The position numbers and the translations under genes are program-made. A DNA stretch of 64,000 nucleotides from contig CP066691.1 in the NCBI GenBank assembly GCA_016432485.1, positions 452,709 through 516,708 on the forward strand. Reading direction: 5' to 3'. This DNA comes from Candidatus Niyogibacteria bacterium (GTDB lineage: Bacteria; Patescibacteriota; Minisyncoccia; HO2-45-28). Under the pieces are notes generated by a model. It was not told the origin of the DNA and searched no databases. It worked only from the letters and a program-made list of their open reading frames with translations. Positions 8,189-57,068 of this stretch are shown piece after piece (the stretch's first letter is position 1; each line of letters begins with the position of its first letter).

Positions 8189-8791
8189 ATGCTGATGAAA
8201 TTATTCGGCTCATTTACACTATTAATCTTTTTTATAATTTTTGGGCCGGTTAACGCGCAAGCGGCGGGATTTGGTATATCGAAATACGGAGAAGCCGGCT
8301 ATGGCTACGGCACAACTACCGGAGAGACTTCTACCGTCCGGATGACCAGTACATCAGGAACGGCCGGCGCCACGACTTCGGTTATGGCCACCACTTCTGA
8401 AATGACCCTTGCCACAACTTCTGAAATGGCCACTGCCACAACTTCTGAAATAACCCTTGCCACAACTTCTGAAATGGCCACTGCCACAACTTCGGTTATG
8501 GCCACCACTTCTGAAATAAGCTCGCCCTCAATTAAACCCGCGGCCGCCCCAGCGCGCATAAAAGATAAAAAAATTTCACCTAAAAACAAAACAACTTCGG
8601 CGCCGGAGCCGACAATAGCTTTAATTTCTACGGAAGAAGAATATAGCACCTCAACAAAAGCCGTTCTGAAATCTCAAATGCCTATTAAAACATTGGTAGT
8701 CGGCATAATCACCAATAGTCTGAAAATAGCGCGGCGCGTGATAAAATATAAACTGTGGCAAGCCGGTCAATTTTTATTTTCAATATTTTAA
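8189..8791 (+). CDS. secreted Thr/Ser-rich tandem-repeat protein (mucin-like)
   Basis: signal peptide; protein repeats ATTSEMTLATTSEMATATTSEITLATTSEMATATTSVMATTSEI mirrored by 18/36-bp DNA tandem repeats at ~8385-8525. Confidence 0.5.
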   Translation: MLMKLFGSFTLLIFFIIFGPVNAQAAGFGISKYGEAGYGYGTTTGETSTVRMTSTSGTAGATTSVMATTSEMTLATTSEMATATTSEITLATTSEMATATTSVMATTSEISSPSIKPAAAPARIKDKKISPKNKTTSAPEPTIALISTEEEYSTSTKAVLKSQMPIKTLVVGIITNSLKIARRVIKYKLWQAGQFLFSIF

Positions 8792-23322: not shown

Positions 23323-24405
23323 TCAGGAATTCTTTAAGTCCCGGGCCGCTTCTTCGGGAGAAACGGCCACCACCTCAACACCCGTCCCCAACTCAAGGCC
23401 GGCCCATATAGAAGTTTTGGGCAGTATTTCAATATGCCAATGATAATAACTTCTGCCGTCTTTGGCCGGAGCGGTGTGTATAAAAAAATTGTAGTCGGGA
23501 TCGTTCATGGCTTTTTTTATTTTTTTAAGGGAGGCAATCATGGCATCGGCCAGCGCCATTCTCTCCTTCGCTTTCAAATCCTCAAAATTTCCGGCGTGCC
23601 TCTTTGGAAAAATCCTGGTCTCATAAGATACGCGCGAGGCGAACGGCGCCAAAACCGTAAAATAATTATTTTCGTAAATCACGCGCGTTCGTTTTTTGCG
23701 TTCCCACTCAAGCATGGCGCAATGAACGCATTTTTTATGGCGCTCAAAATAAATTCTGGAACCCTCCAAGCTCTTCGCGACATCCGGCGGTATAATGGGC
23801 AAAGCAATGAGTTGAGAGTGGGGATGAAAAATAGTGGCGCCCGCTCCCGGCCCCTGATTATGAAATATCAAAATATATTCAATGCATTCCTCGCGGGCTA
23901 GAGTCCGCCAGCGTTCCTGATAAGCGTAAATTAAAATCTCGACTTCTTTGGAAGTCATTTCCGATATTCTTCGGAGGTGGTCGCGGGTAATTATAACCTC
24001 GTGAAATCCTACCCCTTTCATTTTCGCGTACGGACCGTCGGACGTTATCGTCGGACAAATTTTATGCTGTTCAAGAGCCGGATATTTATTTTGTATAATC
24101 TGAACCCACCAGTTATCAAATGAGCTTTCGGCTTTTAGTCCCGACTCAGTCGAGGATCCTCGATGGCTTTGCCATCGGGACTTATAGCTTTTAGTCGGGT
24201 GAGGCAGCCACAATAAAGGAGGGGGCGTGCCTCTTTTCTGCGGGTCGTCAAACGGACAATTTTTTTTTGACGAACTAAGACGCCTTCTTTTTGACGCTTT
24301 GGTTTGAGGCCTTTTGGCGCGCTTGGCGGCTACCAATATCCAGTCGCCGGAAACCAAATCCCGCCTGAATTCCGAGCCGTCAATATTTTCTATTTTTCCC
24401 GTCAT
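23323..24405 (-). CDS. galT: galactose-1-phosphate uridylyltransferase (HIT superfamily), carrying an in-frame palindromic insertion
   Basis: 'RAKRP', 'CPF', 'NKYPAL', 'FHNQGPGAGATIFHPHSQLIALP', second half-site 'YYHWHIEILP'. Confidence 0.65.
   Translation of the reverse strand: MTGKIENIDGSEFRRDLVSGDWILVAAKRAKRPQTKASKRRRLSSSKKNCPFDDPQKRGTPPPLLWLPHPTKSYKSRWQSHRGSSTESGLKAESSFDNWWVQIIQNKYPALEQHKICPTITSDGPYAKMKGVGFHEVIITRDHLRRISEMTSKEVEILIYAYQERWRTLAREECIEYILIFHNQGPGAGATIFHPHSQLIALPIIPPDVAKSLEGSRIYFERHKKCVHCAMLEWERKKRTRVIYENNYFTVLAPFASRVSYETRIFPKRHAGNFEDLKAKERMALADAMIASLKKIKKAMNDPDYNFFIHTAPAKDGRSYYHWHIEILPKTSIWAGLELGTGVEVVAVSPEEAARDLKNS
24131..24196. repeat. palindromic element bounded by 10-bp direct repeat gcttttagtc, in-frame inside galT
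   Basis: DR at 24131-24140 and 24187-24196; stem agtcccga/tcgggact enclosing perfect palindrome tcgaggatcctcga; DR-to-DR distance 56 bp (not a multiple of 3); ~19 extra codons inferred from protein alignment. Confidence 0.5.
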
Positions 24406-25139
24406 AATATATACCTGTTTCTCCAAAAATTAAAACGGATTTTTAAAGTATCGCGCAAGACCTGCAGATATCCTGAAAGTTTAACATGGCTCCTGGGATC
24501 GTTAATCCAATAAGCCGGGATAATGCCGATTTTGTAGCCAAGCGCTTTAGCCAAAGCCAGTGTCTCAATATCAAATCCCCAGCCCGGTACGCGCTGCTGG
24601 GAAAAAATCTTTTCGGCAGCAAAGTCACGGAAGGCCTTAAAACCGCATTGGGTATCCCACACTCCGCGAATTGCCACCCATTGAATAAATAAATTTCCCA
24701 AGGTGCCCATCAAACGTTTATACCATACTTGCGCCACCGCTTGCCTCGCGCCAGGGGCGTCTTTGGAATCGCGCGAACATATCACCACTTCATAACCCTG
24801 GTCAAAAAACGGGCGCATCTTATCAAAATGGCTTATGTCCGTGGAGTTATCGGCGTCGGTAAAAAGCCGTATCCGCCCCTTGGCCGCGAGCATCCCCACT
24901 TTAACCCCCTCTCCCTTGCCCTTGTTTTTCTGACTGATTATTTTTAGATTCGTTATCTCCGGAATTTTTTGCCTGACGATTTCGGCGGTTTTATCGGGAG
25001 AAGCGGCATCAGAAACGATTATTTCGGATTTAAACGGCTGACGCGCGAGATAAGCTCCGATAATATCAATCGTTTTGCCGATTCTCTTTTCTTCATTATA
25101 AGCCGGAATTATAACTGATAGGTAAACATCCTCATTCAT
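24402..25139 (-). CDS. family 2 glycosyltransferase (dolichol-phosphate mannosyltransferase-like)
   Basis: 'LSVIIPAYNEEKRI', 'DADNSTD'. Confidence 0.8.
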   Translation of the reverse strand: MNEDVYLSVIIPAYNEEKRIGKTIDIIGAYLARQPFKSEIIVSDAASPDKTAEIVRQKIPEITNLKIISQKNKGKGEGVKVGMLAAKGRIRLFTDADNSTDISHFDKMRPFFDQGYEVVICSRDSKDAPGARQAVAQVWYKRLMGTLGNLFIQWVAIRGVWDTQCGFKAFRDFAAEKIFSQQRVPGWGFDIETLALAKALGYKIGIIPAYWINDPRSHVKLSGYLQVLRDTLKIRFNFWRNRYIL

Positions 25140-25151
25140 ATCTCCATTCTA

Positions 25152-25553
25152 TCACAAATCCTTATCTCGCCGCCTGTCTAAAAATGTCTGTAAAATCAGG
25201 GCGGCGGATGAAGCGTCAATCTTATGCTCCGGCGCGGATCCTTCGGTTCTAATTTGAGCCGAACTATAAACTTCGTTTTCAAAATGAATCGGCACGCTAA
25301 AAACTTCTTTTAATTTTTCCGCGAATTTGCGGACATCGCCCGAAAGCGGAGTTTCTTCGCCATTGAGTCCCACGGGCAAACCAATGACGATTTCGGAAAC
25401 ATTTTCTTTCAAAATAAAATCGCGAATTGAATCGCGCGCGTAATCCCAGACATTCGGCTGAACGGTCTTAGGAAAAGCGATTTTTTGACTTTCGTCCGAA
25501 AGAGCAAAACCGATTTTTTTAGTGCCATAGTCAATTCCCAAAATCCTAGCCAT
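25152..25553 (-). CDS. ruvX: putative pre-16S rRNA nuclease / Holliday junction resolvase-like YqgF
   Basis: 'MARILGIDYGTKKIGFALSD'. Confidence 0.85.
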   Translation of the reverse strand: MARILGIDYGTKKIGFALSDESQKIAFPKTVQPNVWDYARDSIRDFILKENVSEIVIGLPVGLNGEETPLSGDVRKFAEKLKEVFSVPIHFENEVYSSAQIRTEGSAPEHKIDASSAALILQTFLDRRRDKDL

Positions 25554-25630
25554 TTACCTATTTTATAAGAATTTAAAATATTATCCATTCAAAATGATAA
25601 CTCAATAACAAAAAGTATATCGCCTTATCA

Positions 25631-25666
25631 AAAAAGTTGGCCTGCCACGCAACTGCGCGGCAGGCC
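25631..25666 (-). terminator. Rho-independent terminator for GC-rich gene (8-bp GC stem ggcctgcc/ggcaggcc + TTTTTT on minus strand)
   Basis: perfect stem 25639-25666, aaaaaag at 25631-25637. Confidence 0.7.
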
Positions 25667-25696
25667 AAGAACCAAGGGGTCGAAGCCCCACAAGCC

Positions 25697-26266
25697 CTAC
25701 TTTCCGGAAACAACCCGAGAGCAGGTAAACCACCCACCCGGGCTCCCAACCGAGAGGGCCTCGACGCGCCAGCAGCCGTCGACATCGTACCGATTCGCGC
25801 CCACGACACAGAGTTTTCCACCATACCCTCGGATGTAGGCGAAATGCCAGCCTCTACGACCCTTAAGGCACTTCAGGAAGTGAAACAGACAAATCTCGTT
25901 CTTGTCTCCGAGCTCCTTTAGAATCGGCCCGTCCACCGATGCCTTCTTGAGCTCGTGGACATTGAGCTCTGCCCGGGGAATGCCCTCCTCAACCTTGCCC
26001 CTGAACAGGCGGTCAAAGCTGGACTCGGCGTAGGCATCTGCCTCTTCGAGGGCCCGGTCGTCAACCACGAACCTGTCGTCGGCGCCCTCCACTGCGACCG
26101 ACTCCACGAACTTGAGGAGGTCGGATTCGTGTGGAATGAGACCGCGAAGGAATTCCTGAAGACCAACCGGGTCATCAATCCACCTCTGCCTGTCGGCTCT
26201 CCCCATACTCGGAAGGTTTTCTGCGATTCGAGCAATGAGCTTGGCAACCTGCTTCTCTACATTCAT
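25697..26266 (-). CDS. hypothetical protein encoded in a ~60% GC island (probable horizontally acquired gene); start at ATG 26266 with AGGAGG SD
   Basis: AAGGAGGaaaaaccgccATG; terminator downstream; composition sharply different from flanks; ORFs open on both strands (GC effect). Confidence 0.5.
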   Translation of the reverse strand: MNVEKQVAKLIARIAENLPSMGRADRQRWIDDPVGLQEFLRGLIPHESDLLKFVESVAVEGADDRFVVDDRALEEADAYAESSFDRLFRGKVEEGIPRAELNVHELKKASVDGPILKELGDKNEICLFHFLKCLKGRRGWHFAYIRGYGGKLCVVGANRYDVDGCWRVEALSVGSPGGWFTCSRVVSGK

Positions 26267-26429
26267 GGCGGTTTTTCCTCCTTGGGGTTTTCGCCATTTT
26301 TGTTTTGTTAGAGGGCCATCCCAATGACAGCCATAGCCAGAAAACACCGAAGAATCGGGACCTTTTGGCTATAGCCGCCAAATTGCAAGTAGCAATATAA
26401 AAGAGCTGTTATTTTTTAAGCATAGCAAA

Positions 26430-27197
26430 TTATTTATCATTTGTCAACACCTCACAGCCGCCGCGCTTTACCAAAACCGTATGCTCAAAATGAGCCGCGC
26501 GAGAGCCATCTAAAGTGCGGTAAGTCCAGCCGTTTTTATCCGTAATAATTTTGGCTTCCCCTTCCGCAATCATTGGCTCAATGGCCAGCACCATTCCGTC
26601 TTTTAATTTTTCGCCGGCGCCGGCTTTACCCCAATTAGGAATATGCGGCGGTTCGTGAACCGCCCTGCCCACTCCGTGCCCCACCAATTCCCTAAAAACA
26701 TTAAAGCCGTTTTTTTTAACGAAGAATTCAACCGCGTGGCCGATATCTCCGATGGCTATACCCGCTTTGCATTTTTTAATCGCGGCATCAAGAGCTTGCC
26801 GGCAAACTGATATCAGACGATTTGAACGGCCGTCCGGATCGTATGACCCGCATAAAACCGTTCTGGCGCCGTCAGTAAAAAATCCTTTGTAATTTACGCC
26901 CAAATCCAAAGTTACGACATCGCCCTCACGCAAAATTTTTTTACCCGGAATGCCGTGCACCACCTCATCATTTATTGAAACGCAAATTGAAGAGGGATAC
27001 GGCCGTTCTCCGCCTTCGCCATAACCCTTAAACGATGGAACGGCTCCGGCTTTTATAATTTCACTCTCGGCAATAGCATCAAGTTTCAAGGTTTCAATGC
27101 CGGGCACAATTTCTCGCGCGACACGCGCCAAAACGCGGGCAAGTATTTGCCCGCTTATCCTTAACATTTCTATTTCTTTTTTTGATTTTGCGATCAT
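26430..27197 (-). CDS. map: methionine aminopeptidase type I
   Basis: 'ICVSINDEVVHGIP', 'HGVGRAVHEPP'. Confidence 0.85.
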   Translation of the reverse strand: MIAKSKKEIEMLRISGQILARVLARVAREIVPGIETLKLDAIAESEIIKAGAVPSFKGYGEGGERPYPSSICVSINDEVVHGIPGKKILREGDVVTLDLGVNYKGFFTDGARTVLCGSYDPDGRSNRLISVCRQALDAAIKKCKAGIAIGDIGHAVEFFVKKNGFNVFRELVGHGVGRAVHEPPHIPNWGKAGAGEKLKDGMVLAIEPMIAEGEAKIITDKNGWTYRTLDGSRAAHFEHTVLVKRGGCEVLTNDK

Positions 27198-39866: not shown

Positions 39867-40862
39867 ATGGCAAAAGAAATTGTTTTGTCCGGAATGAGAC
39901 CGACGGGAGAATTGCATCTCGGAAATTACTTCGGCGCGTTGCGTCAGTGGGTTAACGCGCAGAATCGGGGATATAAATGTTTTTGGATGGTGGCCGACTT
40001 GCACTCCCTGACAACGCTTGAAGACACCAAAAGCGTCCGCAAAAATACTTACGAAATGGCCGCGACATGGATCGCCTCCGGACTTGACCCGAAAAAATCA
40101 GTTATCTTTTTGCAATCAGCCGTTCCGGAACACGGCGAACTTGCGTCGATTTTTTCCACGCTCCTTCCGGTTTCGATGCTGGAACTAAACCCGACTTATA
40201 AAGAAATGACTGCCGAACATCCGAAATCGGGGTCGTTTGGCATACTTAATTATCCGGTTTTACAGGCCGCCGATATTTTAATTTACAAAGCGACGGCAGT
40301 GCCAATAGGCAAAGATCAAAACGCGCATATTGAAATCGCGCGCGAAGTCGCGCGTAGATTTAATCACCGCTTCGGAAAAATTTTTCCGGAGCCGCAAGCG
40401 CTTTTCGGGGCATTGCCTAAAATATTTTCGCTCAAATTTCCAGACAAAAAAATGTCCAAATCGCACGGTTCTGATTCATATATTGCCCTTTTGGATTCGC
40501 CCGACAAAATCCGAGAAAAAATAAAAAGCGCGGTCACGGACTCCGGCTCTGATATTAAGTATGACGGGGCAAAAAAACCGGCCATATCCAACCTGCTTGC
40601 GATTTATGAATTGATTTCGGGTGTATCAATAAAAAAGCTTGAAACAAAATACAAAAAATCAGGATACTCCGAATTTAAAAAAGACCTAGCCGAAGCCGTC
40701 ATCGCCCATCTTTCGCCGATTCAAAAAAAATACGCTCTGCTTTCGAAAAATCCCAAGGCAATAGATAAAATTTTAAAAGACGGCTCAAAAGCGGCTCGCA
40801 TTTTCGCCCAAAAAACAATGGAAGAGGTCAAACAAAAAATAGGGCTTCTTGATTTTTATTAG
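39867..40862 (+). CDS. trpS: tryptophan--tRNA ligase
   Basis: HIGH-class 'PTGELHLGNY', 'KMSKS', ~330 aa. Confidence 0.85.
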   Translation: MAKEIVLSGMRPTGELHLGNYFGALRQWVNAQNRGYKCFWMVADLHSLTTLEDTKSVRKNTYEMAATWIASGLDPKKSVIFLQSAVPEHGELASIFSTLLPVSMLELNPTYKEMTAEHPKSGSFGILNYPVLQAADILIYKATAVPIGKDQNAHIEIAREVARRFNHRFGKIFPEPQALFGALPKIFSLKFPDKKMSKSHGSDSYIALLDSPDKIREKIKSAVTDSGSDIKYDGAKKPAISNLLAIYELISGVSIKKLETKYKKSGYSEFKKDLAEAVIAHLSPIQKKYALLSKNPKAIDKILKDGSKAARIFAQKTMEEVKQKIGLLDFY

Positions 40863-41059: not shown

Positions 41060-41524
41060 TTAATCGCTTAATTTTTTAAAAGTCCTTTTGTGCATATCAA
41101 CCACCGCTTTAATTATTAAACTAATTAGTGCGACAAGAACTGTGATAAGACCCAGAGCAAGACCCGCGATAGGACCCGTGACAAAACCTGCGCCAAAGCC
41201 CGCGATAAGACCCAGGGCAAGACCCGCGATAAGACCTAGAACAAGACCCGTGACAAAACCCGCGACAAGGTCTTCGTAATCTGCTCTATATTTTTTTAAA
41301 ACAGGAAACAACCAGAGATAAACGGATAAAATGAGGTTCAGATAGAGTGGGAACAAAAAGACGTCAAACCAGCGGTTAACTGTTATTGAAAAAGAGCCGA
41401 TTGCCACTTCGTAGGCGTGAGGAACATTTGCCAAGTAGCTGACAAGACCCCAGCCAACAGCGTAAATCAGAGCACCCCAGAAAAAAACGACCCCCATCAG
41501 ATAAAACTTCTGTGTTTGGGACAT
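41060..41524 (-). CDS. membrane protein with glycine-zipper repeats (GLxLGLIAG)n
   Basis: repeats 'GLVLGLIAGLALGLIAGFGAGFVTGPIAGLALGLI' and underlying DNA tandem repeats ~41140-41260. Confidence 0.45.
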   Translation of the reverse strand: MSQTQKFYLMGVVFFWGALIYAVGWGLVSYLANVPHAYEVAIGSFSITVNRWFDVFLFPLYLNLILSVYLWLFPVLKKYRADYEDLVAGFVTGLVLGLIAGLALGLIAGFGAGFVTGPIAGLALGLITVLVALISLIIKAVVDMHKRTFKKLSD

Positions 41525-53927: not shown

Positions 53928-56030
<2,103 letters not shown>

Positions 56031-56038
56031 AAATCAAA

Positions 56039-56183
56039 TGAAATTTAGTTTAACATACGAATATTGACGTGCGAAAGGGGGTCGGGGAAAACTGTAGTTT
56101 TCCCCGTAGAGGAAAACAGCGACCCCGCAGTTGCGGGGGAGCGCTAGAAACCGAGAGGTTTCTAGGGAGGCCTTTGGCCGACG
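56039..56183. mobile_element. ~145-bp GC-rich element of three consecutive perfect hairpins inserted at the fusA start, flanked by ~71-bp direct duplication of fusA 5' end (55968-56038 and 56184-56254)
   Basis: hairpins ggggaaaac/gttttcccc, ccccgc/gcgggg, ctagaaacc/ggtttctag; duplicated 5'UTR+21 codons. Confidence 0.5.
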
Positions 56184-56244
56184 CGTCAATATGAGCGATT
56201 ATTCCGATATCTCTTGTCTTTTCAATAGGAAAATCTCTTGGCAT
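56050..56244 (-). pseudogene. duplicated fusA 5' fragment (first 21 codons [21 protein letters not shown] then unrelated sequence)
   Basis: identical to fusA N-terminus; diverges at insertion boundary. Confidence 0.6.
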
Positions 56245-56258
56245 AAATCAAACGAGTA

Positions 56259-57068
56259 TTAATTTATTTCTTTCTTTTTATCTTCTTTTATTTTCTGGTA
56301 CGCCCTTTCAAAATCTTCATGGGCTTTACGACGCTCCTTGGAGCCAGGTTCAGAAAGTCGCAAAAGCTGACGCCTCAATCCGTGCCATGCCTGTTCTTTC
56401 AAATATTTTTCGCCTTTCTCGGCTAACGCTTTTTCGTCTTCCGGCAATTCTTCCGAAGAAATTCCGCGGGACTTTACTTCTTTATCCGCGCTTGCGTCTG
56501 CGCCTTTCGTTTGCTCTTTTTCTTTGGCGCGCCGTCCCATCACCACATCCTTCTCTTCCACAAAAGGGTAAATCTCGGTGGGGTCAATGCCATTATGACG
56601 ATAATAATCTGCCTCCAATTCATACGCGCGCGCGATAAACGGCGCTATCTCAAACATTTCCTTCTTCGCCCCACCCTCTTCAATCATAAATTTCATAGTT
56701 AAGGCAAACCATTGCCGAAAAATCTCCGGCTGTTCAAACGGCGTCTCCTTTTCAGGTTCTGCGGATGCTGTTAAATTTTCAACTTTTTGCTGAAAATCGC
56801 GAAATCGGTTGTTAAATTCCTCGTCGTTATCCGATTCTCTCAAGACAGGGTGATTAAGCTCTCCATCAGCGGCGGTAAAACCAACTACAATCATTTCTTG
56901 AAAGGTTTTCTCCCTTAAATTCTTTTCAAGTTTCTCATCGCTCCAAAAACGTTCAGCTTCTTTAGGGTCTTCGTGGAGTTTACGTAAATATTCACGTCTC
57001 AACGGCGGAATTATGGATTCATCCCACGGAACGGGTTTTTCAAATCGCGGTTCTTGTTCAATTCCCAT
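56259..57068 (-). CDS. highly charged (E/K-rich) hypothetical protein inserted between rpsG and fusA
   Basis: 269-aa ORF in conserved str operon position where no gene is expected; no motif. Confidence 0.45.
   Translation of the reverse strand: MGIEQEPRFEKPVPWDESIIPPLRREYLRKLHEDPKEAERFWSDEKLEKNLREKTFQEMIVVGFTAADGELNHPVLRESDNDEEFNNRFRDFQQKVENLTASAEPEKETPFEQPEIFRQWFALTMKFMIEEGGAKKEMFEIAPFIARAYELEADYYRHNGIDPTEIYPFVEEKDVVMGRRAKEKEQTKGADASADKEVKSRGISSEELPEDEKALAEKGEKYLKEQAWHGLRRQLLRLSEPGSKERRKAHEDFERAYQKIKEDKKKEIN

What the first reader, a model, noticed from the sequence alone, without database searches (positions are those of the whole stretch)
25620..26400. ~60% GC island between ruvX and map carrying a gene with consensus SD and a textbook terminator
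Composition jumps from ~40% to ~60% GC over ~770 bp. Long ORFs are open on both strands, which is a GC effect. Only the minus-strand frame starting at ATG 26266 has an AGGAGG SD 9 nt upstream and ends 30 nt before an 8-bp GC hairpin + T6 terminator (25631-25666). The 190-aa product is acidic/helical at its N-terminus, Cys/Gly/Trp-rich at its C-terminus, and has no motif I can name. This is probable horizontal acquisition from a high-GC donor into the ribosomal-operon neighbourhood.
Basis: seen in the sequence. Interest (0 to 1): 0.6.

Follow-up and report, generated by a model that had tools for sequence, protein, structure and literature searches.

The report
Stand-alone DGR target gene cassette
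The GC-rich island is a real, self-contained gene whose protein family is rewritten by a diversity-generating retroelement (targeted hypermutation) in related ultra-small bacteria. In this window the gene sits alone, with no retroelement within 64 kb.

Summary
An 811-bp cassette (about 25637-26447, minus strand) has 58% GC against 45% in its flanks. It carries its own promoter, a structured 5' leader, an AGGAGG SD, a 189-aa ORF and a 14-bp hairpin followed by T6. Six independent assemblies reproduce both junctions exactly. Close relatives have map directly next to ruvX, so the cassette is a genuine insertion.

The protein has no Pfam, NCBIfam, PHROG, PADLOC or PDB match. It does belong to a large Patescibacteria family (357 clusters at 50% identity). 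In 40 related loci the last ~115 nt of the gene is a DGR variable repeat. A template repeat lies 260-350 nt downstream and differs almost only at its adenines, followed by bAvd and a reverse transcriptase.

The window copy keeps the target-side parts: a VR with an NNY codon footprint, an 8-nt repeat array after the stop codon, and the GC hairpin. It has no TR, Avd or RT anywhere in the 64 kb. It is either a remote target or an orphan, and I could not tell which.

The GC excess is a trait of the family (58 of 60 loci, mean +12.5 points), while the partner RT and Avd genes are not GC-rich. This argues against a simple high-GC donor. Verdict: new member of a known kind, of moderate interest.

The parts
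26419..26447 (-). Sigma-70-like promoter: TTGACA, 17-nt spacer, TG-extended TATGCT. The -35 box overlaps the last codons of map.
   Evidence: 10 of 12 matches, TG present. The homologous cassettes L001 and L094 align from this -35 box onwards. Most family loci carry CTTGACA-17-TATAAT in the same place.
26267..26412 (-). 5' UTR leader of about 145 nt. It contains the conserved hairpin and a GGCG...CGCC stem that encloses the SD (AGGAGG at 26282-26277).
   Evidence: RNA fold -52.2 kcal/mol, z = -3.7. About 90% nucleotide identity to L001 and L094, against about 69% for the CDS. Indels in the leader are not multiples of three.
26325..26379 (-). Conserved leader hairpin motif: CAUAGCCAAAAG, a variable apical stem, then UUUUCUGGCUAUG, with a covarying basal stem.
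   Evidence: Model R1 scores 61.9 bits on the sense strand and 29.1 on the antisense strand. This is the only hit in the 64 kb. About 26 family loci also have a sense-strand hit; the ones I inspected lie upstream of the gene. Covariation: 12 of 23 pairs change on both sides; 92.8% of cells are paired, against 81% when shuffled and 34-49% when the partner is slid. No Rfam match.
25697..26266 (-). CDS of 189 aa plus TAG. Identical to NCBI 'hypothetical protein HYY55_02555' of a Candidatus Niyogibacteria MAG.
   Evidence: 357 relatives at E <= 1e-3. AF2 pLDDT 92.8. Core dN/dS 0.23-0.42.
25700..25813 (-). Region equivalent to the variable repeat (VR), residues about 152-189.
   Evidence: It aligns to VRs of relatives that have cis TRs. 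At the 11 sites that are AAY in the L008 TR, 10 window codons are NNY (P = 0.015). Pairwise differences at those sites are 0.58 and 0.64 at codon positions 1 and 2, against 0.27 and 0.17 at other VR codons. The coding strand is 13% A.
25666..25696 (-). Array of about four 8-nt repeats directly after the stop codon: GGCTTGTG GGGCTTCGA CCCCTTGG TTCTTGG.
   Evidence: Across the family, base autocorrelation is 0.443 at lag 8 and 0.413 at lag 16, against 0.26 in controls. The signal is absent downstream of TRs. The motif C[TC]TTG[AG][ACT] occurs in 66 of 78 loci, against 8% of control windows.
25630..25668 (-). GC-rich hairpin (14-bp stem, 4-nt loop AGUU) followed by T6. It is an intrinsic terminator and also lies where DGR targets carry their hairpin/cruciform.
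   Evidence: The hairpin is conserved in L001 and L094 with compensatory changes. Across the family, hairpins lie a median 36 nt after the stop codon, and 36 of 79 have 4-nt loops. For comparison, Guo et al. 2011 (PMC3240598) is read.

Best explanation
The island is an 811-bp, self-contained expression cassette: promoter, structured leader, SD, 189-aa ORF, and a hairpin that acts as a terminator. It was inserted between map and ruvX.

Its product is a small, soluble protein with no predicted membrane segment. It has a variable N-terminal helical part and a conserved alpha/beta domain. It belongs to a Patescibacteria family that serves as the variable (target) protein of diversity-generating retroelements.

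In relatives the mechanism can be read directly from the sequence. A template repeat lies about 300 nt downstream of the gene. The inferred steps, from established DGR biology, are that it is transcribed and reverse-transcribed by the adjacent RT-Avd pair with errors at adenines, and that the cDNA then overwrites the last ~115 nt of the gene. This re-randomises about 10 AAY-templated codons on a fixed scaffold rich in Trp, Gly and Val.

The window copy keeps every target-side element. It has a VR with the NNY footprint of past adenine mutagenesis, the 8-nt repeat array, and the GC hairpin after the stop codon. It has none of the donor-side elements (TR, Avd, RT) within 25 kb on one side and 38 kb on the other.

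It is therefore either a remote target served in trans by a DGR elsewhere in the 837-kb genome, or an orphan that is no longer diversified. I lean slightly towards orphan, about 55:45.

Shown here: homology, DGR linkage in relatives, the missing donor parts in the window, the insertion, and the family-wide GC excess. Inferred: ligand binding by the VR surface, the function of the repeat array, hairpin and leader, and the current activity state.
For: Family and coding status:
- 357 representative clusters at E <= 1e-3, and 56 at <= 1e-10.
- All CDS indels against L001 are multiples of three.
- Nei-Gojobori dN/dS is 0.23-0.42 in the core and 0.55-1.25 in the VR.
- Two AF2 models have pLDDT 92.8 and 91.9 and the same order of secondary-structure elements.

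DGR linkage:
- P0155, P0158 and P0159 are each followed by bAvd (PF22296) and RVT_1.
- 40 loci have a cis repeat. In 37 it lies 260-350 nt after the stop and its mismatches are almost all at adenines of the downstream copy, for example L008 23 against 0, L024 17 against 0, L027 16 against 0.
- The layout target(+), TR(+), avd(-), RT(+) matches architecture B3 of Wu et al..

Stand-alone copies are common and can be live:
- About 22 of about 49 loci with at least 1.5 kb of downstream sequence have no RT or Avd.
- The VR of stand-alone L044 matches the TR of L033, on another contig of the same metagenome, with 17 A-site mismatches and 1 other. L067 against L071 gives 23 and 6.

The window:
- No TR was found.
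- No RT or Avd was found by tblastn; best E = 0.74.
- There is only one family copy in the window.
- The NNY footprint is present.

Insertion and assembly:
- Empty map-ruvX sites occur in L099, L100 and L103.
- Six independent assemblies are identical to the window.

GC excess as a family trait.
Against: - No cognate TR or RT was demonstrated for this copy, and the rest of the 837-kb genome could not be searched. My genome contigs pattern scan returned nothing, not even the window's own VR.
- The window protein has lost two tryptophans that are nearly invariant in the family: TGG to TGT at residue 153 and TGG to CGG at residue 159. It may be decaying or may have changed function.
- The hairpin loop (AGUU) does not fit the GRNA consensus reported for phage DGRs.
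- The function of the protein is not known for any family member.
Confidence: 0.8

Rival explanations
1. Active remote target. A DGR (TR, Avd, RT) elsewhere in the 837-kb genome still rewrites this VR in trans, recognising the repeat array and hairpin downstream of the stop codon.
For: There is precedent within the family. The stand-alone L044 VR matches the L033 TR from another contig of the same metagenome (17 A-site mismatches, 1 other), and L067 matches L071. All target-side elements are intact in the window. The ORF, promoter and leader are intact. Non-adjacent and remote DGR targets are documented (Wu et al.; Roux et al.). In the GTDB representative of the same species (L098), the sequence departs from the window inside the VR and then becomes a run of N. 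That could reflect VR heterogeneity.
Against: No TR, RT or Avd lies within 25 kb on one side and 38 kb on the other. No paralogue from the same MAG appeared in two protein searches, although RT-proximal targets are usually paralogues of remote ones. The VR is identical in six or more independent assemblies from several runs. Two conserved scaffold Trp residues are mutated. [quoted passage not shown]
Confidence: 0.36
2. An ordinary horizontally acquired island from a high-GC donor, encoding an unrelated hypothetical protein.
For: GC and GC3 deviate strongly from the neighbouring genes. The cassette is absent from the same site in relatives with 82-84% RuvX identity.
Against: The same +10-15 point GC offset is seen in 58 of 60 family loci, in hosts of 0.38-0.50 GC, with only a weak dependence on host GC (r = 0.25, slope 0.2). 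The RT and Avd genes of the same cassettes are not GC-rich: 0.34-0.48, against 0.49-0.62 for the targets. No integrase, transposase, tRNA or flanking repeat marks the ends. The protein is not unrelated to known systems; it is a DGR target family.
Confidence: 0.05
3. The island is a structured non-coding RNA gene and the ORF is a by-product of high GC.
For: The region is a GC-rich island in an AT-richer genome, with a strong promoter and terminator. ORFs are open on both strands. My first crude count of differences by codon position was nearly flat, 59/52/65.
Against: No Rfam hit at E <= 1. Hundreds of protein homologues of matching length exist. All indels are in frame. A proper dN/dS is 0.23-0.42 in the core. 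The AF2 fold is confident. The structured RNA elements that do exist are confined to the UTRs.
Confidence: 0.01
4. Assembly chimera that joins a high-GC fragment into a low-GC contig.
For: There is an abrupt compositional change at both edges.
Against: Six contigs assembled independently from different runs (SRR12113425, SRR12113390, SRR4343430, SRR12113433, SRR12113385, SRR12113421) are 100% identical across map, the cassette and ruvX. L098, from another MAG, also carries the ruvX-side junction.
Confidence: 0.01

Closest known systems
DGR variable (target) proteins of CPR/Patescibacteria: DGR clade 2 of Roux et al. 2021, and the unclassified 'UVR' VR classes with architecture B3, TR-(avd)-RT, of Wu et al. 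2018
   Same: Relatives have a C-terminal VR of about 115 nt. A TR lies downstream with A-to-N mismatches at AAY codons. bAvd lies on the opposite strand and is followed by RVT_1. A GC hairpin follows the VR. The hosts are groundwater and lake Patescibacteria.
   Different: The window copy has no TR, Avd or RT within 64 kb. I could not establish which published cluster or UVR class the family corresponds to, because no supplementary files are held. No Pfam or NCBIfam model covers it.
Bordetella phage BPP-1 Mtd target site: VR, IMH and GC hairpin/cruciform (Guo et al. 2011, PMC3240598)
   Same: The VR is at the very C-terminus. Cis elements sit in the non-coding stretch right after the stop codon. 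There is a GC-rich inverted repeat with a 4-nt loop within 4-34 bp of the VR (28 nt here). Stem pairing is kept by compensatory changes while the stem sequence varies.
   Different: The stem is 14 bp rather than 7-10 bp. The loop is AGUU (AACU in L001), not GRNA. The hairpin is followed by T6, so it also looks like a terminator. Between the stop codon and the hairpin lies an 8-nt periodic repeat array, which the DGR papers I read do not mention.
C-type lectin fold DGR variable proteins with solved structures: Mtd, TvpA, AvpA, TaqVP
   Same: The C-terminal half has the element order beta, alpha, alpha, beta, beta, beta, beta (E99-106, H112-122, H127-133, E140-146, E152-160, E165-172, E184-188). 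That is the order of the CLec core as described by Handa et al.. The variable residues alternate with conserved aromatic scaffold residues.
Remote or non-adjacent DGR targets, as in Treponema, Legionella and cyanobacteria
   Same: A target-type gene far from any RT that keeps the downstream cis elements. Within this family, L044/L033 and L067/L071 show trans TR-VR matches.
   Different: No cognate TR is known for the window copy. Its two nearest relatives (L001 and L094) are also stand-alone.

Membership tests
DGR target (variable-protein) gene | Homology to genes whose 3' end is a VR paired with a TR that differs at TR adenines | tested here: met
   Forty related loci have a cis repeat. In 37 the mismatches are overwhelmingly at adenines of the downstream copy, for example 23/0, 17/0, 16/0, 19/0. 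The window protein aligns over its full length with these proteins.
DGR target (variable-protein) gene | A cognate TR for this particular VR | tested here: not met
   None was found in the 64-kb window by repeat search, by blastn with word size 7, or by an A-degenerate pattern validated on L004 and L006. The best TR in any fetched locus is only 70% identical, with 10 mismatches not at A sites. The rest of the genome could not be tested (one search was uninformative).
DGR target (variable-protein) gene | A DGR reverse transcriptase and accessory protein (Avd) in the same genome | tested here: not met
   tblastn with three RTs and three Avds from the family's DGRs against the whole window gave a best E of 0.74. 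This covers only 25 kb on one side and 38 kb on the other.
DGR target (variable-protein) gene | Footprint of adenine mutagenesis: NNY codons at TR-AAY positions, with variation at codon positions 1-2 | tested here: met
   NNY at 10 of 11 sites in each of the window, L001 and L094, against a background of 0.55 (P = 0.015). Pairwise differences are 0.58/0.64/0.36 at these sites and 0.27/0.17/0.23 at other VR codons.
DGR target (variable-protein) gene | GC-rich inverted repeat (hairpin/cruciform) shortly downstream of the VR | tested here: met
   A 14-bp stem with a 4-nt loop lies 28 nt after the stop codon. The loop does not fit the GRNA consensus of phage DGRs.
DGR target (variable-protein) gene | Ongoing hypervariation of the VR in the population | tested here: inconclusive
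   Consensus sequences from six runs are identical, but their flanks are identical too, so there is no contrast. L098 diverges inside the VR and then becomes a run of N. Read-level data are not available with these tools.
C-type lectin fold (the fold of solved DGR variable proteins) | Structural superposition on Mtd, TvpA, AvpA or FGE-type CLec domains | tested here: inconclusive
Rho-independent terminator | GC-rich stem-loop immediately followed by a U-tract at the end of a transcription unit | tested here: met
   The consensus scan found a 14-pair stem followed by CTTTTTTGAT. The fold is -40.7 kcal/mol for the 3' UTR, z = -5.3. About half of the family's hairpins have T-rich tails.
Known structured RNA family (Rfam 15) | Covariance-model match at or near the gathering score | tested here: not met
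   Nothing better than E = 0.28, and far below the gathering score, in 25400-26600. No hit at E <= 0.1 in five other loci that carry the leader hairpin.
Genomic island acquired from a compositionally distinct donor | Absent from the orthologous site in close relatives | tested here: met
   In L099, L100 and L103 map and ruvX are separated by only about 57, 30 and 190 nt.
Genomic island acquired from a compositionally distinct donor | Composition that reflects the donor genome rather than the gene itself | tested here: not met
   The family gene is richer in GC than its flanks in 58 of 60 loci (mean +12.5 points), with r = 0.25 to host GC. The co-located RT and Avd genes are at or below host GC.
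Genomic island acquired from a compositionally distinct donor | Mobility genes or terminal repeats at the boundaries | tested here: not met
   There is no integrase or transposase ORF, no tRNA among the adjacent features, and no direct or inverted repeat flanking 25637-26447.

The most novel reading that the evidence does not exclude
This ~200-aa Patescibacteria family may be a DGR-diversified scaffold that is not a recognisable C-type lectin fold. Its targets may be marked by cis elements not described before: an 8-nt periodic repeat array (nnCTTTGA/nCCTTGG) between the stop codon and the GC hairpin, possibly working as a portable 'diversify here' tag, and a covarying 5'-UTR hairpin (CAUAGCCAAAAG...UUUUCUGGCUAUG) that regulates the variable protein. 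On this reading, stand-alone copies such as the one in this window are live remote targets that a single DGR services across the genome.
Probability: 0.25. Interest if true: 0.7.

Novelty: new member of a known kind. Interest (0 to 1): 0.5.

Why it matters
The result turns an anonymous 'hypothetical protein in a GC island' into a recognisable object: the target half of a targeted-hypermutation system in an ultra-small episymbiotic bacterium.

It shows that a sharp GC island is not always a sign of foreign origin. Here the compositional offset travels with one gene family across dozens of hosts, while the family's own RT and Avd partners stay AT-rich. That pattern needs an explanation. Candidates are selection on the mRNA or cDNA, adenine avoidance, or biased repair after retrohoming.

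About 45% of family members with enough context lack an adjacent RT. Surveys that require the RT and VR on one contig therefore undercount DGR targets in CPR bacteria.

The conserved leader hairpin and the octamer array after the stop codon are concrete, testable candidates for regulation and target recognition in CPR DGRs, which have never been studied experimentally.

Tried and rejected
- Annotation searches: Pfam, PHROGs, PADLOC and NCBIfam on the protein and on 61-62 family members found nothing recurrent. A profile search of PDB sequences gave a best E of 0.57.
- RNA: Rfam on the island and on five related loci found nothing.
- Coding test: my first codon-position count (59/52/65) suggested neutral or non-coding evolution. 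A proper Nei-Gojobori calculation on three sequences, split by region, reversed that reading.
- IS200/IS605 idea: I considered an element with hairpin ends and dropped it. I saw no conserved HUH-type histidine motif when I read the sequence and the close homologue. The ends turned out to be a promoter and a terminator shared by a DGR target family.
- Genome-wide TR search: an A-degenerate pattern scan of genome contigs returned 0 hits, not even the window's own VR. The species representative in that collection (L098) has a run of N over the VR, so the test says nothing.
I replaced it with the tighter alignment A3.
- The supplementary data of Wu et al. 2018, which would have let me assign the UVR class, are not held.
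- A marginal tblastn hit of one family member at 40377-40697 (26% identity, E = 5e-4) looks spurious to me.
Full report
OBSERVATION

The compositional island is real. In 200-nt windows GC climbs from about 0.39-0.49 to 0.55-0.625 between 25600 and 26200. The gene is 0.579 GC and the rest of the window 0.447. The excess lies at synonymous sites: GC3 is 0.69, against 0.39-0.49 for ruvX, map, adk, secY and the glycosyltransferase gene next door.

The minus-strand ORF runs from ATG 26266 to TAG 25697 and encodes 189 aa. AGGAGG lies 10 nt upstream of the ATG. A hairpin with a 14-pair stem and a 4-nt loop sits at 25668-25637, 28 nt after the stop codon, and is followed by T6.

I add a sigma-70-like promoter at 26447-26419, TTGACA-17-TGnTATGCT. 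The whole unit from promoter to terminator is therefore about 811 bp.

That can be set aside. The identical protein occurs on 11 contigs, and the six places returned, assembled independently from different runs, are 100% identical to the window across map, the cassette and ruvX.

IS IT A GENE?

The protein has no hit in Pfam, PHROGs, PADLOC, NCBIfam or PDB sequences. The island has no Rfam match. The protein is identical to 'hypothetical protein HYY55_02555' of a Candidatus Niyogibacteria MAG with an 837-kb contig.

An exhaustive HMMER search of 1.84 billion cluster representatives found 357 relatives at E <= 1e-3, and 56 at <= 1e-10. Nearly all are 180-235 aa.

My first crude comparison with the closest DNA-level relative (L001) gave almost equal numbers of differences at the three codon positions (59/52/65). 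That briefly suggested an RNA gene. Three results point the other way:
- Every indel in the CDS is a multiple of three, whereas those in the UTRs are not.
- A Nei-Gojobori calculation on three cassettes gives dN/dS of 0.23-0.42 in the core and 0.55-1.25 in the last 39 codons.
- AlphaFold2 gives a confident model (pLDDT 92.8), and a second family member gives pLDDT 91.9 with the same order of elements.

The ORF is a protein-coding gene.

WHAT THE FAMILY IS

I looked up genomic contexts for four relatives on long contigs. Three of them (P0155, P0158, P0159) are followed within about 400-500 nt by a bAvd gene (PF22296) on the opposite strand and then an RVT_1 reverse transcriptase. In each case the last 107-123 nt of the gene is repeated 260-370 nt downstream. 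The mismatches fall on adenines of the downstream copy: 13 of 15, 19 of 20 and 21 of 30. This is the signature of a diversity-generating retroelement.

A metagenome scan found at least 436 relatives, of which I kept 80 loci. Together with the earlier loci:
- Forty loci have a cis repeat. In 37 of them it is 61-124 nt long (mostly 100-124) and lies 260-350 nt after the stop codon, with mismatches almost all at adenines of the downstream copy. Examples are L008 23/0, L024 17/0, L027 16/0 and L054 19/0. In the other three (L030, L034, L039) the repeat lies elsewhere in the locus and most mismatches are not at A sites, so I read those as second paralogous VRs.
- The layout is target(+), hairpin, TR(+), avd(-), RT(+). 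This is architecture B3 of Wu et al. 2018.
- TR codons at the variable sites are AAC or AAT, and they alternate with fixed Trp, Ala, Val, Ser and Pro codons.

Roux et al. 2021 describe a Patescibacteria-restricted DGR clade. They also report target clusters in which no C-type lectin fold could be detected. Wu et al. left most CPR VRs unclassified, as 'UVR' classes. This family very probably sits among those. I could not confirm which, because the supplementary files are not held.

THE WINDOW COPY

The whole 64 kb contains:
- no second copy of the VR, by repeat search, by blastn with word size 7, or by an A-degenerate pattern that recovers the TRs of L004 and L006 as positive controls;
- no RT or Avd, by tblastn with three examples of each, best E = 0.74;
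- no second family member.

Donor-side parts are therefore missing for at least 25 kb on one side and 38 kb on the other.

Target-side parts are all present:
- Of the 11 codons that are AAY in the TR of L008, the window has NNY at 10: GGC, AAT, TAC, GAC, CGC, CTC, AGC, GGT, TTT and TCT. The same holds for the two closest cassettes, L001 and L094. The background NNY fraction is 0.55, so P = 0.015.
- Among these three cassettes, pairwise differences at those sites are 0.58 and 0.64 at codon positions 1 and 2. At other VR codons they are 0.27 and 0.17. That is the footprint of past adenine mutagenesis.
- The coding strand of the VR is 13% A.

Stand-alone copies are common in this family. About 22 of about 49 loci with at least 1.5 kb of downstream sequence have no RT or Avd. 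Some of them are demonstrably remote targets. The VR of L044 matches the TR of L033, on another contig of the same metagenome, with 17 A-site mismatches and only one other mismatch. L067 against L071 gives 23 and 6. Others look like decay products: L013 and L020 keep a partial TR but no RT or Avd, and L073 keeps a TR and a faint Avd remnant.

For the window copy I cannot decide between remote target and orphan. Four points lean towards orphan:
- No paralogue from the same MAG appears in either protein search.
- The VR is identical in all the independent assemblies returned.
- Two family-invariant tryptophans are mutated by ordinary point changes, TGG to TGT and TGG to CGG.
- Its two nearest relatives are also stand-alone.

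My attempt to settle this with a pattern scan of the species-representative genomes returned nothing, not even the window's own VR. The reason became clear later. The representative of this species (L098: RuvX 98% and GT2 100% identical) departs from the window inside the VR and then becomes a run of N up to the hairpin.

INSERTION AND COMPOSITION

Relatives with 82-84% identical RuvX (L099, L100), and a more distant Niyogibacteria MAG (L103), have adk-map-ruvX-GT2 with only about 57, 30 and 190 nt between map and ruvX. The cassette is therefore an insertion in the window's lineage.

Homology among the three closest cassettes starts at the -35 box and ends at the terminator hairpin. The three sit in different places: window between map and ruvX; L094 between ruvC and yebC; L001 with its 3' end next to rpsT. 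The -35 box overlaps the last codons of map. I found no terminal repeats or mobility genes.

The 'high-GC donor' idea does not hold. The family gene is richer in GC than its flanks in 58 of 60 loci, with a mean of +12.5 points. It stays near 0.56 whatever the host GC (r = 0.25, slope 0.2). In the DGR cassettes the RT and Avd genes are at or below host GC: L004 0.34 and 0.34 against a target of 0.49; L006 0.37 and 0.39 against 0.52; L007 0.42 and 0.48 against 0.62. The offset also covers the non-VR part of the gene, so adenine avoidance in the VR explains only part of it. I have no tested explanation for the rest.

CIS ELEMENTS

(a) The 5' UTR. The leader is far better conserved than the CDS. 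By eye in the alignment, L001 and L094 are nearly identical in the leader, although their CDS has dS of about 1.0.

The leader contains a hairpin with conserved arms, CAUAGCCAAAAG and UUUUCUGGCUAUG. A C is bulged or mismatched, the apical stem is variable but always paired, and the basal stem covaries. On 14 sequences, 92.8% of cells are paired, against 81% in shuffles and 34-49% when the partner is slid. Twelve of 23 pairs change on both sides.

A covariance model finds the hairpin on the sense strand in the window and about 26 family loci. Wherever both strands were reported, the sense strand scores higher; in the window it is 61.9 against 29.1 bits. The hits I inspected lie upstream of the gene. 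There is only one hit in the 64-kb window. The frequent G-U pairs and the strand asymmetry favour an RNA element. Rfam does not contain it. Its function is unknown; regulation or stabilisation of the target mRNA is my guess.

(b) The 3' UTR. Directly after the stop codon, family members carry three to eight units of an 8-nt repeat, nnCTTTGA or nCCTTGG. Base autocorrelation is 0.443 at lag 8 and 0.413 at lag 16, against 0.26 in control windows. There is no such signal downstream of the TRs. The core motif is present in 66 of 78 loci, against 8% of control windows. The window has about four units at 25696-25666.

(c) The GC hairpin follows. Its stem is kept by compensatory changes among the window, L001 and L094. 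Across the family such hairpins lie a median 36 nt after the stop codon, 36 of 79 have 4-nt loops, and about half have T-rich tails.

Guo et al. 2011 showed for phage BPP-1 that a GC hairpin/cruciform with a 4-nt GRNA loop just downstream of the VR is needed for efficient homing. They also showed that the IMH plus the hairpin suffice to target a heterologous gene. By analogy, the octamer array and hairpin here are good candidates for the recognition element of this CPR DGR clade, because they occur at VRs and not at TRs. That is an inference. The window's loop (AGUU) does not fit GRNA, and its T6 tail means the hairpin is very probably also a terminator.

THE PROTEIN

The model has three N-terminal helices, a part that varies across the family, followed by an alpha/beta domain. 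Fifty-three of 62 members lack any hydrophobic 19-residue segment, so the protein is probably soluble. I did not run a signal-peptide prediction.

VERDICT

The finding is a correct observation with a partly wrong interpretation. The island is an inserted, stand-alone DGR-target cassette of a Patescibacteria-specific variable-protein family. Its GC richness is a property of that family, not a donor signature. That makes it a new member of a known kind.

Three family-level side observations deserve follow-up: the leader hairpin, the octamer array after the stop codon, and a GC excess confined to the target gene.

Noticed in passing
window 26325-26379 (minus); also L001 280-333, L094 4890-4943, L014 373-426 and 1414-1467, L050 4793-4848, and others: A conserved, covarying 5'-UTR hairpin (CAUAGCCAAAAG, variable apical stem, UUUUCUGGCUAUG) lies upstream of many genes of this DGR-target family, both DGR-linked and stand-alone. 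It is not in Rfam. L014 carries two copies with identical promoters.
   Followed up: yes
window 25666-25696 (minus); first ~60 nt after the stop codon in 66 of 78 family loci: An array of 8-nt periodic repeats (nnCTTTGA/nCCTTGG) sits between the stop codon and the GC hairpin. It is present downstream of VRs but not of TRs. It is a candidate target-recognition element and is not mentioned in the DGR papers I read.
   Followed up: partly
family loci L001-L087 (gene against flanks); L004, L006, L007 (RT and Avd): The target gene is about 12.5 GC points richer than its host in 58 of 60 loci, including its non-VR part. The RT and Avd genes of the same cassettes are at or below host GC. I have no explanation for this.
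   Followed up: partly
L013 1249-1323, L020 5924-5984, L073 5944-6055: Partial or complete template repeats persist downstream of the target gene, but no RT was detected (L073 has only a faint Avd remnant). These look like DGRs caught in decay.
   Followed up: partly
L098 about 180-330 (GTDB representative of the window's species), equivalent to window about 25640-25775: A near-identical relative (GT2 100% and RuvX 98% identical) departs from the window exactly inside the VR with an unrelated 36-nt stretch, then reads as a run of N up to the hairpin. This is either masking or an assembly break at a heterogeneous VR.
   Followed up: partly
window 26430-26447: The -35 box of the cassette promoter (TTGACA) is formed by the codons for the last residues of map (..V-L-T-N-D-K*). 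Relatives without the cassette end map differently (..I-L-T-L*). The insertion seems to have rewritten the 3' end of map.
   Followed up: partly
P0011 (926 aa); P0003 against P0002: One relative carries four matched stretches of the domain in a 926-aa protein. P0003 shares a near-identical core with P0002 but has a different N-terminal helical part, which suggests modular recombination of N-termini.
   Followed up: no
window about 24151: Three independently assembled Logan contigs (L088, L089, L090) all end within about 1 nt of this position, inside the ORF 23323-24426. This hints at strain variation or a repeat that breaks assemblies there.
   Followed up: no
window 41129-41272; 8345-8548; 55969-56052 and 56183-56266: There are other repeats in the window: a 12-nt periodic array (8 or more units), a 24-nt periodic array inside a coding region, and an 84-nt direct repeat 214 nt apart with 94% identity.
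   Followed up: no
L034 3970-4100, L039 3679-3826, L030 4420-4535: These loci hold second VR-like copies whose mismatches are mostly not at A sites. They are probably additional paralogous target genes next to the same DGR.
   Followed up: no
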